DNA from: an uncultured Eubacteriales bacterium
Lineage (GTDB): Bacteria > Bacillota > Clostridia > Oscillospirales > CAG-272
Assembly: GCA_934365155.1 (NCBI GenBank)
Contig: CAKRMZ010000009.1
Location: 1-41,733 of the forward strand
Direction of reading: 5' to 3'
Length of the DNA: 41,733 nucleotides
Shown here: positions 21,079 through 22,469 of the stretch, piece by piece
Position numbering within the stretch: the first letter of the stretch is position 1
How the letters are laid out: each line of letters begins with the position of its first letter
Translations under genes and position numbers: made by a program
Notes under the pieces: generated by a model
Told to the model about the DNA's origin: nothing
The model's database searches: none
Seen by the model: only the letters and a program-made list of their open reading frames with translations

Positions 21079-21843
21079 TCAATGTCTGTTTTTTCGGTTT
21101 TGCTTGTTGATTTTTGAGATGTTTTTAAACTTTTCACGCTTTGCTTCTAAATATCGGCTACTGTCTGTTGCATATTCGGTCTCGTTTTTCAGTTTCAAAT
21201 AAGAATTCCATCTGGCATCGTCCAGCGTTCCGTCCGACAAAGCTTTTTGAATGGCGCATCCCGGCTCTGAGGTATGACTGCAATTGGAAAATTTGCACAT
21301 GTGGGACAAATTTTCAATATCCCGAAATGCTATGTTGATTCCGTTATCATTGTCCCACATTCCAATTTCGCGCATGCCGGGGGTATCAATGACAAAAGCC
21401 CCGTCAATTTCGGTATCCACAATGGCAGACGTACCGATGACCATGCTGTCGGTCAAATCGTGGTTTTTACAGCTTTCCGACACCTCGTGCGTCAGGTGCA
21501 GATAGTCGGTGTTGAACCCGGCAAGACTGTCCGAGAACGGAACATCGCAGGAGCTGACCTCACCGGTCTTATTTTTCACAATGGTATTCACTGCAATGCT
21601 GTCATATTTCCAAAACTCGCGTCCCACGGGGAGAAAATAAAACTCACCCAACTCGCTCGCCGCCTTGCCGATGCACCAGCAGAGGAGCATATTGAACTTG
21701 TAACCACGCTTACGGCTCAGCTTCAGAAGCGGCGTGACATCCAGTGTTTTGAAAAAGGTCACCATGGGGTCCGGCGCGTTCATCCAAAGCGCATATGCCT
21801 CGGCACGGGCAGTCGCTTTCGGGTCGATAACAACCGGTTTCAT
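21079..21843 (-). CDS. Chimeric protein: type-A chloramphenicol-acetyltransferase-like (CAT fold) N-terminal ~155 aa that lacks the catalytic HHAVCDG His region, joined to an RsgA/YjeQ-like C-terminal zinc-finger tail
   Basis: The N-terminus ..[49 protein letters not shown].. is alignable by eye to CAT (..[46 protein letters not shown]..). The C-terminus ..[14 protein letters not shown]...[46 protein letters not shown] matches the RsgA DTPGF...CKFRGCLHLKEPKCAV...Y motif block. The ATG overlaps the stop of the upstream XAT gene (ATGA). Confidence 0.55.
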
Positions 21844-22469
21844 TCTGCACGCTCTAATGCCGCAATATCGCCGGACTGAATGGCGGGAATGCCGTGTTTG
21901 ATTTTTTCCTCGTCCCAATCCCACCAGCGCAAGGCTTGGAGTTTCTCAATCGTTGCGTCGTCAAATCGACGGCGAATGGACTTTGCGGGAACGCCGCCCA
22001 CAATGGTGTAGGGGGGAACGTCCTTTGTTACCACGGCACGTGTACCGACGATTGCACCGTCACCGATTTTTACACCCGGCATAATGACCGCCTCATAGCC
22101 GATCCAAACATCATTTCCGATCACGGTGTCGCCTTTGTTGTCCCATGCATCGCAAATGTTTTTTACATCAAGATCCCATTCATCAAAGAAAATTGGGAAG
22201 GTATAGGTCGCTAACGACTTTATCGAATGGTTTCCGCTGGTGAACAGAAATTTTGCGCCGCAGGCAATCGAACAGAATTTGCCGATTTTCAGTTTGTCGC
22301 CGTTGACGGGATAGTGATAGAGCACATTGTTCTTTTCAAAATCGCAGGGATCGTGGACGAAATCGTTATATATTGTATAATCGCCGACTTCGATATTCGG
22401 GTCTGTGATAACATCTTTTAGGTAAACCGTCTGTTTATCATGCGGACGAGGATAGATTTTATTTTTCAT
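21840..22469 (-). CDS. Xenobiotic acetyltransferase (XAT) family hexapeptide-repeat enzyme, Vat/CatB-like (candidate streptogramin A or chloramphenicol O-acetyltransferase)
   Basis: The 209-aa protein contains ..[19 protein letters not shown].. and ..[73 protein letters not shown].., which match conserved blocks of Vat(D)/SatA and CatB as recalled from memory. Confidence 0.75.

What the first reader, a model, noticed from the sequence alone, without database searches (positions are those of the whole stretch)
21840..22469. Candidate streptogramin A/chloramphenicol acetyltransferase (Vat/CatB-like) encoded 4 kb from the ribosomal protein super-operon
The 209-aa hexapeptide-repeat protein has near-identical blocks to Vat(D)/SatA and CatB enzymes, which O-acetylate antibiotics that bind the 50S peptidyl-transferase centre. 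In gut and rumen Clostridia such genes are clinically relevant resistance determinants and are often mobile. Here the gene sits just past a tRNA-Trp in an accessory region with no obvious mobility genes.
Basis: partly seen in the sequence, partly recalled or inferred. Interest (0 to 1): 0.5.

Follow-up and report, generated by a model that had tools for sequence, protein, structure and literature searches.

The report
Vat/CatB-like acetyltransferase, substrate unknown
This gut Clostridia gene resembles the enzymes that inactivate streptogramin A or chloramphenicol and is real and intact, but it belongs to a separate, very common and untested branch of that enzyme class with a different substrate pocket, so it cannot yet be called a resistance gene.

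Summary
The 209-aa ORF at 21840-22469 (-) is real and is a full-length xenobiotic acetyltransferase (XAT), the hexapeptide-repeat class that holds Vat and CatB. It fails both curated resistance models: Vat 240 bits against a cut-off of 300, CatB 198 against 350.

It belongs to a well-supported clade (187/200 bootstraps) present in many gut Clostridia. The catalytic His is kept. The substrate-binding Tyr found in every Vat and CatB reference checked is Ile or Met in 194 of 199 clade members and never Tyr. Three other VatD streptogramin-contact positions carry clade-specific, nearly invariant residues (P92, W109, D110).

The gene is under strong purifying selection (dN/dS 0.04-0.08). It lies in a tightly packed operon with a perfect sigma-70 promoter and an 18-bp palindromic operator that are conserved in 17 related operons. 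The ancestral unit is TetR-DUF998-XAT-CatA-like. In this window a ClpP and a GNAT gene lie between DUF998 and XAT, and the CatA-like partner is truncated and fused to an RsgA C-terminus.

The locus is chromosomal with no mobility genes, but a 74%-identical copy sits in an IS1187 composite transposon on a Bacteroides fragilis conjugative plasmid. The acceptor substrate is unknown, and no functional test of this clade was found.

The parts
25264..25291 (-). Sigma-70 promoter of the operon: TTGACA (25291-25286), 16-nt spacer, TATAAT (25269-25264)
   Evidence: 12/12 consensus match. The promoter is conserved at the same place upstream of the TetR gene in 17 related operons while the flanks diverge.
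25242..25259 (-). 18-bp palindrome CTAACGAATATTAGTTAG directly after the -10 box; putative TetR operator
   Evidence: Read from the sequence. Conserved as CTAAC-N-AAyrTT-N-GTTAG in 17 distinct relatives and perfect in L008 (phylogenetic footprint). Binding by the TetR protein is inferred, not shown.
24571..25230 (-). TetR-family regulator, first gene of the operon
   Evidence: Pfam TetR_N, E 4e-18. Found next to DUF998 and the XAT in the close relatives.
23722..24357 (-). DUF998 membrane protein (211 aa from the ATG at 24357)
   Evidence: Pfam DUF998, E 7e-13. Gene call of 211 aa on identical contigs. Conserved operon member.
23124..23714 (-). ClpP protease subunit lying between DUF998 and GNAT; seen only in this lineage
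   Evidence: Pfam CLP_protease, E 9e-80. NCBIfam ClpP subfamily model 310.9 bits against a cut-off of 249. Best PDB match 6mx2, 278 bits. Absent next to the XAT in all 80 related genome loci. Present on all sufficiently long contigs that carry the identical XAT.
22486..23112 (-). GNAT-family N-acetyltransferase (208 aa)
   Evidence: Pfam Acetyltransf_1/9/7. Present between DUF998 and the XAT in L002, L003, L005, L016, L018, L023 and L028 at 76-86% identity. dN/dS 0.05-0.09.
21840..22469 (-). The finding: XAT-class hexapeptide acetyltransferase, 209 aa. Catalytic His81; clade signature I33, N35, P92, W109, D110.
21079..21843 (-). Chimeric 254-aa ORF. CatA-like family 2 residues ~1-150, lacking the catalytic HHxxxDG motif, are fused in frame to the C-terminal ~100 aa of RsgA. 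The junction is at about 21391-21414. Its ATG overlaps the XAT stop codon (ATGA).
   Evidence: NCBIfam CatA_like_2 covers model positions 2-148 of 203; RsgA TIGR00157 covers 170-246 of 247. Relatives have full-length 206-226-aa CatA-like genes with HHTQMDGAH. The intact partner scores 349 bits against a cut-off of 250. The same chimera is present on independent contigs. L003 shows further decay.
20904..20930 (-). Intrinsic terminator (12-bp stem, 6 G-C pairs, T-run) that ends the transcription unit

Best explanation
The gene encodes an acetyl-CoA-dependent O-acetyltransferase of the xenobiotic acetyltransferase (XAT) class. It belongs to a distinct, abundant gut-Clostridia subclade that is neither a canonical Vat nor a canonical CatB.

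By homology it should be a left-handed beta-helix trimer. His81, on the extended loop, would act as general base on a hydroxyl of a small, largely hydrophobic acceptor bound at a subunit interface.

The acceptor pocket is remodelled, with I/M33 in place of the usual Tyr and with P92, W109 and D110. The preferred substrate is therefore probably a different xenobiotic or antibiotic from streptogramin A or chloramphenicol.

The gene is transcribed from a strong promoter that a TetR repressor shuts off by binding an 18-bp palindrome at the transcription start. It would be switched on when an inducer, presumably the substrate or a relative of it, binds the repressor.

Shown here: class membership, clade distinctness, residue pattern, purifying selection, operon structure, and the conserved promoter and palindrome.

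Inferred: trimer, catalysis, TetR binding to the palindrome, induction, and a detoxifying role.
For: - Class: full-length homology to solved VatA, VatD, CatB8 and PaXAT structures, with the catalytic His conserved.
- Below both curated cut-offs, consistently in three clade members.
- Clade monophyly in 187 of 200 bootstraps. It groups with other Tyr-less XAT representatives and lies outside the named Vat and CatB groups in the point tree.
- In 199 clade sequences position 33 is I150/M44/F3/V2. P92 is in 197, W109 in 198, D110 in 190 and H81 in 198 of 199.
- All Vat and CatB references carry Y33 and their own group-specific residues.
- Roles of these positions: VatD Y37 and N92 H-bond virginiamycin M1, and L93, L108 and P109 line the site (bioRxiv 10.1101/2025.01.31.635826). 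VatA Y42 stabilises the oxyanion (PMC7885111). PaXAT Y30 and S32 H-bond chloramphenicol (PMC8096840).
- dN/dS 0.04-0.08 with dS around 1 or more. The XAT stays intact while its GNAT and CatA-like neighbours decay in L003.
- Operon: 4-17-bp gaps or overlaps from DUF998 through the chimeric ORF, perfect promoter and terminator, promoter and palindrome footprint in 17 relatives.
- Detox-type company in two architectures: TetR-DUF998-XAT-CatA-like and CAT-fold/Ble-like/GyrI-like/XAT. MATE pumps lie next to five distant members.
- Captured by an IS1187 composite transposon on a conjugative Bacteroides plasmid.
Against: - There is no biochemical or phenotypic datum for any clade member.
- The best-scoring model is still Vat. 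Identity to Vat-family proteins (45-51%) approaches the lowest Vat-Vat identities (51-63%).
- JGI annotates some clade members as virginiamycin A acetyltransferase.
- The VatD fragment-screening preprint states that the catalytic His is the only absolutely conserved residue of the family. Loss of the Tyr therefore does not prove loss of streptogramin or chloramphenicol activity.
- XATs are known to be promiscuous.
- Deep branching in the NJ tree is unresolved: the Vat group excludes the clade in only 109 of 200 replicates.
- The AF2 model was too poor to inspect the pocket.
- Most distant clade members are solo genes without the TetR operon.
Confidence: 0.55

Rival explanations
1. It is a genuine but divergent Vat enzyme. 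It O-acetylates the C14 hydroxyl of group A streptogramins and would confer virginiamycin M or dalfopristin resistance.
For: The top NCBIfam hit is Vat_ABCDEFH (240 bits, E 1.5e-71), and Vat(I), Vat(F) and Vat(E) are the next hits. The best PDB hits are VatA and VatD. Identity to plasmid Vat-family proteins is 51%. VatD Y52, Y54, H82 and W121 are conserved as Y51, Y53, H81 and W122. JGI names some members virginiamycin A acetyltransferase.
Against: The score is 60 bits below the curated cut-off in three members. Both VatD side chains that H-bond virginiamycin M1 are replaced (Y37 to I/M, N92 to P), and L108-P109 becomes W-D. These changes are invariant across the clade. The loop after the YxxY motif is 2-3 residues longer. 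VatB-like XATs in core genomes of C. bolteae and C. clostridioforme gave no pristinamycin resistance (PMC5073890; clade identity not verified).
Confidence: 0.15
2. It is a type B-like chloramphenicol O-acetyltransferase that gives low-level chloramphenicol resistance, as PaXAT/CatB7 does.
For: CatB model E 1e-58, and CatB8 and E. anophelis CatB structures at E ~1e-50. NCBI names the clade CatB-related O-acetyltransferase. It is repeatedly paired with CAT-fold genes. Functional metagenomics recovers many novel chloramphenicol acetyltransferases from unidentified adult-gut organisms (PMC4480905; enzyme type not stated).
Against: 198 bits against a cut-off of 350. The CatB N-terminus carrying Pro8 and Gly11 does not align. 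Tyr30 becomes I/M and Ser32 becomes Asn. CatB signature residues N79, F92 and Y93 are absent. The CAT-fold partners themselves fail the type A model (53 and 136 bits against 270). C. bolteae and C. clostridioforme strains were chloramphenicol-susceptible unless they carried cfr or a Tn4451-like cat.
Confidence: 0.15
3. It is a housekeeping or metabolic acetyltransferase acting on an endogenous metabolite, sugar or cell-envelope precursor, with no role in xenobiotic defence.
For: Very high conservation and strong purifying selection across many species. Chromosomal location with no mobility genes here. The susceptible phenotype in related species.
Against: Sugar, maltose, galactoside and serine acetyltransferase models match only residues ~110-170, at 30-61 bits. 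The XAT-specific N-terminal region, His loop and C-terminal WW helix domain align in full to Vat and CatB. The genomic position changes between species. The gene sits behind a TetR repressor and operator and next to CAT-fold, Ble-like, GyrI-like and MATE genes. It was captured by a composite transposon on a plasmid of another phylum. None of this is typical of a core metabolic gene.
Confidence: 0.1
4. In this genome the gene is a decaying leftover of an operon whose partner has been destroyed.
For: The adjacent CatA-like gene is truncated before its catalytic motif and fused to an RsgA fragment. L003 shows further decay of the GNAT and CatA-like genes.
Against: The XAT ORF is intact with all clade-invariant residues. 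dN/dS is 0.04-0.08. The protein is identical on 14 contigs from several samples. The promoter, operator and terminator are intact. In L003 the XAT is the gene that survives.
Confidence: 0.03

Closest known systems
Vat family streptogramin A O-acetyltransferases (Vat(A), Vat(D), Vat(E); NCBIfam NF000311; PDB 4HUS, 1KHR)
   Same: Same XAT architecture and length. 45-51% identity over the full length. The catalytic His, VatD Y52, Y54 and W121, the hexapeptide core and the C-terminal WW helical domain are conserved.
   Different: Below the curated cut-off (240 vs 300 bits). VatD Y37 is I/M, N92 is P, L108-P109 is W-D and D39 is N. The loop after the motif is 2-3 residues longer. It forms a separate clade. 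It is chromosomal and TetR-controlled, not plasmid-borne beside vgb or vga genes.
Type B (and C) chloramphenicol acetyltransferases: CatB2, CatB3, CatB8, PaXAT/CatB7 (NCBIfam NF000490; PDB 2XAT, 8J40, 6MFK)
   Same: Same fold class. 43-45% identity from about residue 15 onward. Catalytic His conserved.
   Different: 198 bits against a cut-off of 350. The N-terminal Pro8/Gly11 segment is not shared. Tyr30 and Ser32 are replaced. The CatB residues N79, F92 and Y93 are absent. It is not an integron cassette.
ApmA, an XAT-like apramycin N-acetyltransferase (PDB 7JM0-2)
   Same: Precedent that the XAT scaffold has been re-tuned to a quite different acceptor through changes around the same His/Tyr site (PMC7885111). 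The C-terminal half is homologous (71 bits).
   Different: ApmA has an extra N-terminal domain (274 aa) and keeps the Tyr. Only residues 111-201 of the query align.
TetR-repressed, substrate-inducible resistance operons (TetR/TetA and QacR/QacA paradigm)
   Same: A TetR-family gene, a palindromic operator overlapping a strong promoter, and effector genes under its control.
   Different: Here the regulator is co-transcribed with the effectors rather than divergently transcribed. The effectors are acetyltransferases plus a DUF998 membrane protein rather than an efflux pump. The inducer is unknown.

Membership tests
XAT class (LbH xenobiotic acetyltransferases: Vat, CatB and relatives) | Hexapeptide-repeat left-handed beta-helix core | tested here: met
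   Pfam Hexapep, E 1.5e-11. Full-length alignment to solved XAT structures.
XAT class (LbH xenobiotic acetyltransferases: Vat, CatB and relatives) | Catalytic His on the extended loop (VatD H82, VatA H87, PaXAT H79) | tested here: met
   H81 in SGNHS aligns to VatD H82. Conserved in 198 of 199 clade members.
XAT class (LbH xenobiotic acetyltransferases: Vat, CatB and relatives) | XAT-specific N-terminal segment and C-terminal helical domain with the WW motif, about 210 aa in total | tested here: met
   Alignment covers residues 5-207 of 209 against VatA. LRWWDW aligns with VatA LQWWNL and VatD IKWWNW.
XAT class (LbH xenobiotic acetyltransferases: Vat, CatB and relatives) | Homotrimer with active sites at subunit interfaces | not testable with these tools
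   Only a monomer AF2 model was possible, and it had low confidence (mean pLDDT 57).
Vat family streptogramin A O-acetyltransferase | Score at or above the curated NCBIfam NF000311 cut-off (300 bits) | tested here: not met
   240.1 bits. Other clade members score 238.5 and 242.7.
Vat family streptogramin A O-acetyltransferase | Tyr of the Y-S/T-Y-Y motif that H-bonds the antibiotic and stabilises the oxyanion (VatD Y37, VatA Y42) | tested here: not met
   Ile33 in the query. I/M/F/V and never Y in 199 clade sequences. Y in all Vat references.
Vat family streptogramin A O-acetyltransferase | Streptogramin-pocket residues VatD N92, L93, L108 and P109 | tested here: not met
   P92, I93, W109 and D110 in the query; only L93 to I is conservative. 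The Vat references have N/H/Y, I/L, L and P at these positions.
Vat family streptogramin A O-acetyltransferase | Acetylates group A streptogramins and confers resistance | not testable with these tools
Indirect negative phenotype in C. bolteae and C. clostridioforme.
Type B chloramphenicol O-acetyltransferase (CatB) | Score at or above the curated NCBIfam NF000490 cut-off (350 bits) | tested here: not met
   198.1 bits. 185.8 and 179.9 bits in other clade members.
Type B chloramphenicol O-acetyltransferase (CatB) | Chloramphenicol H-bonding residues Pro8, Gly11, Tyr30 and Ser32 (PaXAT numbering) | tested here: not met
   Tyr30 is I33 and Ser32 is N35. The N-terminal SPFKG segment has no aligned counterpart.
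Type B chloramphenicol O-acetyltransferase (CatB) | Acetylates chloramphenicol | not testable with these tools
   58 bits (cut-off 314) and 55 bits (cut-off 347), confined to residues ~42-168 and 116-168.

The most novel reading that the evidence does not exclude
The clade is a third functional subclass of xenobiotic acetyltransferases, and it catalyses acetyl transfer without the canonical active-site Tyr. Together with a CatA-like acetyltransferase and a DUF998 membrane protein, it forms a TetR-controlled, inducible detoxification operon in gut Oscillospiraceae. The target would be a still unidentified antibiotic or dietary or microbial xenobiotic that is neither streptogramin A nor chloramphenicol. 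The module can be mobilised into Bacteroides.
Probability: 0.3. Interest if true: 0.6.

Novelty: new variant of a known kind. Interest (0 to 1): 0.35.

Why it matters
Annotation pipelines label this very abundant gut gene family inconsistently: 'CatB-related O-acetyltransferase' at NCBI and 'virginiamycin A acetyltransferase' at JGI. Resistome surveys that use loose thresholds may therefore count it as streptogramin or phenicol resistance.

This analysis shows it fails the curated criteria and has a different pocket, so such counts would be unsafe.

If the clade has its own substrate, finding it would add a resistance or detoxification specificity to the XAT class. It would also explain why the gene is so strongly conserved, why it is TetR-regulated, and why it has been picked up by a transposon on a conjugative Bacteroides plasmid. 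The conserved operator and the TetR protein offer a direct experimental way to find the inducer.

Tried and rejected
1. ABC-F ribosomal-protection neighbour as a clue to PTC-binding antibiotics. The 496-aa double-ABC protein beside L009 is a sugar-transporter ATPase (YtfR-like, 709 bits), and the 'cluster' was only generic ABC similarity. Rejected.
2. AF2 structure of the XAT, for pocket inspection and fold search. Mean pLDDT was 57 because only in-clade sequences could be supplied. The model was not used and no fold search was run.
3. Linking the susceptible C. bolteae and C. clostridioforme VatB-like XATs (PMC5073890) to this clade. A second homologue search with a C. symbiosum member and a cluster look-up returned no organism names for those species. 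The link remains unverified.
4. tRNA-Trp-associated genomic island. There is no duplicated tRNA 3' end, no flanking direct repeats and no integrase. Rejected for this window.
5. Anti-phage defence role. There were no PADLOC hits for the operon proteins.
6. Assembly chimera as the origin of the CatA'::'RsgA ORF and of the ClpP insertion. Rejected, because the same arrangement occurs on contigs from several independently assembled samples, and L003 carries a related scar.
7. Recent horizontal transfer as the reason for 85-92% identity among Oscillospiraceae copies. Rejected, because dS is about 0.8-2.9.
8. The VatA structure paper (PMC4249515) is not held. VatD contact residues were taken from a 2025 bioRxiv paper instead.
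9. Literature searches for a functional test of the clade, the operon or 'CatB-related' proteins found nothing specific.
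Full report
**Observation**

It carries hexapeptide repeats (Pfam Hexapep, E 1.5e-11). It matches the NCBIfam Vat model (E 1.5e-71) and CatB model (E 1e-58). It also matches solved VatA, VatD, CatB8 and PaXAT structures over nearly its whole length (E 3e-52 to 1e-45), including near-identical blocks.

The context statements are also correct. tRNA-Trp lies at 19237-19312. The ribosomal and rpoA operon ends with rplQ at 17844, 4.0 kb away. No mobility gene or att-like repeat is present in the block.

**Family assignment**

The protein belongs to the xenobiotic acetyltransferase (XAT) class and not to the sugar acetyltransferases. 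Maltose, galactoside and serine acetyltransferase models hit only the C-terminal hexapeptide part, at 30-61 bits.

It nevertheless fails both curated resistance models: Vat_ABCDEFH 240.1 bits against a cut-off of 300, and CatB 198.1 against 350. Two other members of its clade, taken from different operon types, fail in the same way (238.5 and 242.7 bits for Vat).

Identity is 45-51% to Vat(A), Vat(D), Vat(E) and plasmid Vat-family proteins, and 43-45% to CatB2, CatB3 and CatB8. For comparison, Vat-Vat identity is 51-63% and Vat-CatB about 41%.

**A distinct clade with its own pocket**

Homologues at 70-92% identity are extremely common:
- All 8000 scored candidates had E below 1e-20.
The best 80 are 69-92% identical. 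Most are Oscillospiraceae, Lachnospiraceae, Ruminococcaceae and Clostridium.
- In a library clustered at 50% identity the clade collapses to one cluster, and the next relatives drop to about 54%.
- In an NJ tree of 65 sequences the clade is monophyletic in 187 of 200 bootstraps. It groups with other unnamed XAT representatives and lies outside the named Vat and CatB groups in the point tree. Deeper branching is unresolved.

I mapped the residues that contact the antibiotics onto the query by alignment. For VatD these are Y37 and N92 (H-bonds to virginiamycin M1), Y52, Y54, A80, H82, L93, L108 and P109 (bioRxiv 10.1101/2025.01.31.635826). VatA H87 and Y42 are the base and the oxyanion stabiliser (PMC7885111). 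PaXAT/CatB residues Pro8, Gly11, Tyr30, Ser32 and His79 bind chloramphenicol (PMC8096840).

The result:
- The catalytic His (H81), Y51, Y53 and W122 are conserved.
- The Tyr of the Y-S/T-Y-Y motif is Ile33.
- VatD N92 is Pro, L108-P109 is Trp-Asp and D39 is Asn.
- The CatB N-terminal segment has no counterpart.

In 199 clade sequences position 33 is I150/M44/F3/V2 and never Tyr. P92 (197/199), W109 (198/199) and D110 (190/199) are nearly invariant. Every Vat and CatB reference has the Tyr and its own group-specific residues. A few other unnamed XAT lineages also lack the Tyr (P0137, P0145, P0190, P0202, P0229, P0243).

The clade therefore has a conserved, selected pocket that is different from both known resistance families.

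**Selection and history**

dN/dS against eight relatives is 0.04-0.08, with dS 0.8-2.9. The high protein identity thus reflects constraint over long divergence and not recent transfer.

The identical protein occurs on 14 contigs. Contigs from several independently assembled samples share the window's exact arrangement, including the ribosomal operon flank.

**The operon**

In the close relatives the gene is part of a compact, overlapping four-gene unit: TetR-DUF998-XAT-CatA-like (family 2). This unit sits at different chromosomal sites in different species, with no mobility genes within 8 kb. The intact partner passes the CatA_like_2 model (349 bits against 250) but fails the true type A CAT model (53 against 270).

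The window's version has three special features:
- A GNAT gene lies between DUF998 and the XAT. Some relatives share this.
- A canonical ClpP gene also lies there. No other lineage among the 80 loci has it.
- The CatA-like gene is cut off after about 150 residues, before its HHxxxDG catalytic motif. It is fused in frame to the last ~100 residues of RsgA.

L003 (XAT 90% identical) shows a further-decayed version of the same scar and a broken GNAT gene, but an intact XAT. The XAT is therefore the gene kept by selection, and it does not need the CatA-like partner.

The transcription unit is well defined:
- A perfect TTGACA-16-TATAAT promoter at 25291-25264.
- An 18-bp palindrome, CTAACGAATATTAGTTAG (25259-25242), immediately after the -10 box.
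- From DUF998 to the chimeric ORF, five ORFs separated by at most 17 bp or overlapping. TetR is the first gene and is followed by a longer gap (about 210 bp) before DUF998.
- A strong terminator at 20930-20904.

The promoter and palindrome are conserved at the same position in 17 distinct related operons, while the surrounding sequence is unrelated. This phylogenetic footprint supports TetR autoregulation and ligand induction. Binding and induction are inferred, not shown.

**Other contexts and mobility**

In Lachnospiraceae a clade member sits in a different cassette: CAT-fold, Ble/glyoxalase-like, GyrI-like, XAT. The left flank is constant. The right flank varies and holds IS, prophage or serine-recombinase genes. 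That CAT-fold protein is only 26% identical to the Oscillospiraceae partner and also fails the type A model.

A CAT-fold neighbour is present in 13 of the 25 closest loci (L001-L025) but is rare among distant members, most of which are solo genes. Some of those lie beside MATE pumps or a small CD3324-family protein.

On the conjugative B. fragilis plasmid NZ_CP054001.1, a 74%-identical copy lies with an unrelated GNAT gene between two 100%-identical IS1187 copies. That segment has 47% GC against 32% for the rest of the fetched region. This is a composite transposon carrying foreign DNA. Clostridium and Phocaeicola plasmids carry copies at 67-72% identity.

**Function**

No paper in the library tests a member of this clade or this operon.

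The nearest phenotypic information is from Dehoux et al. 2016. VatB-related XATs (48% identity) in the core genomes of C. bolteae and C. clostridioforme did not give pristinamycin resistance. The strains were chloramphenicol-susceptible unless they carried cfr or a Tn4451-like cat (PMC5073890). I could not verify that those CDSs belong to this clade.

Functional metagenomics does recover novel chloramphenicol acetyltransferases from unidentified adult-gut organisms (PMC4480905), so chloramphenicol activity is not excluded.

My best reading (confidence 0.55) is an inducible XAT-class O-acetyltransferase with its own, still unknown acceptor specificity. The rivals are a divergent Vat (0.15), a CatB-like enzyme (0.15), an endogenous-metabolite acetyltransferase (0.10) and a decaying remnant (0.03).

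**Verdict**

The gene is an XAT, but it should not be filed as a Vat or a CatB, nor called a resistance determinant, on present evidence.

It represents an abundant, uncharacterised variant of a known enzyme class, with a conserved regulatory architecture that makes its function experimentally approachable. Interest is moderate (0.35).

Noticed in passing
window 23124-23714 (-): A canonical ClpP gene (best PDB match 6mx2, 278 bits) lies inside the TetR-controlled operon between DUF998 and GNAT. None of the 80 related loci has a ClpP next to the XAT. I could not tell whether it is the genome's only clpP or an extra, possibly drug-related, copy.
   Followed up: partly
window 21079-21843 (-), junction about 21391-21414: An in-frame chimeric ORF joins the first ~150 aa of a CatA-like family 2 acetyltransferase (catalytic motif lost) to the C-terminal ~100 aa of the ribosome-biogenesis GTPase RsgA. 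The join falls at a short VDT/IDT microhomology. It is reproducible in independent assemblies, and L003 holds a more decayed version.
   Followed up: yes
window 27882-28579 and 29734-30390 (-): Two further TetR genes have strong palindromes just upstream: 28527-28579 (AGTAACCGTTCGGTTACT core) and 30353-30390. The first is followed upstream by an ICMT/PEMT-like membrane methyltransferase (28575-29207). A flavodoxin-like gene (27147-27710) and an alpha/beta hydrolase (25288-26001) lie nearby. The whole 20-30 kb block looks like a set of small-molecule response modules.
   Followed up: partly
L081 (B. fragilis plasmid NZ_CP054001.1) 6431-10649: IS1187 - GNAT (148 aa, Acetyltransf_10) - XAT (74% identical to the query) - IS1187. 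The two IS copies are identical over 981 bp, and the captured DNA has 47% GC against 32% for the rest of the fetched region. This is a composite transposon on a conjugative (MOBP, MPF_T) plasmid.
   Followed up: partly
L107-L110, 4117-6630: A Lachnospiraceae cassette, CAT-fold (fails all CatA models) - Ble/glyoxalase-like - GyrI-like - XAT, encodes the identical XAT protein in many assemblies. The right flank varies and holds an IS (rve), prophage remnants or two serine recombinases.
   Followed up: partly
L099-L102, 4275-4910: A second hexapeptide-repeat protein (211 aa) lies next to another TetR gene, 3 kb upstream of the TetR-DUF998-XAT-CAT operon in the same genomes. It may be an XAT paralogue.
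   Followed up: no
L015, L039, L062, L037 (record titles): Clade members at 71-84% identity sit on MAG contigs labelled Treponema, Planctomycetia, Mailhella and Bacilli. This reflects either binning contamination or transfer outside Clostridia.
   Followed up: no
window 19480-20025 (+) and 20131-20883 (-): A P-loop kinase-like protein (weak Zeta_toxin/AAA_33 match) and a DUF6198 membrane protein lie between tRNA-Trp and the operon. Neither is found near the XAT in other species.
   Followed up: no
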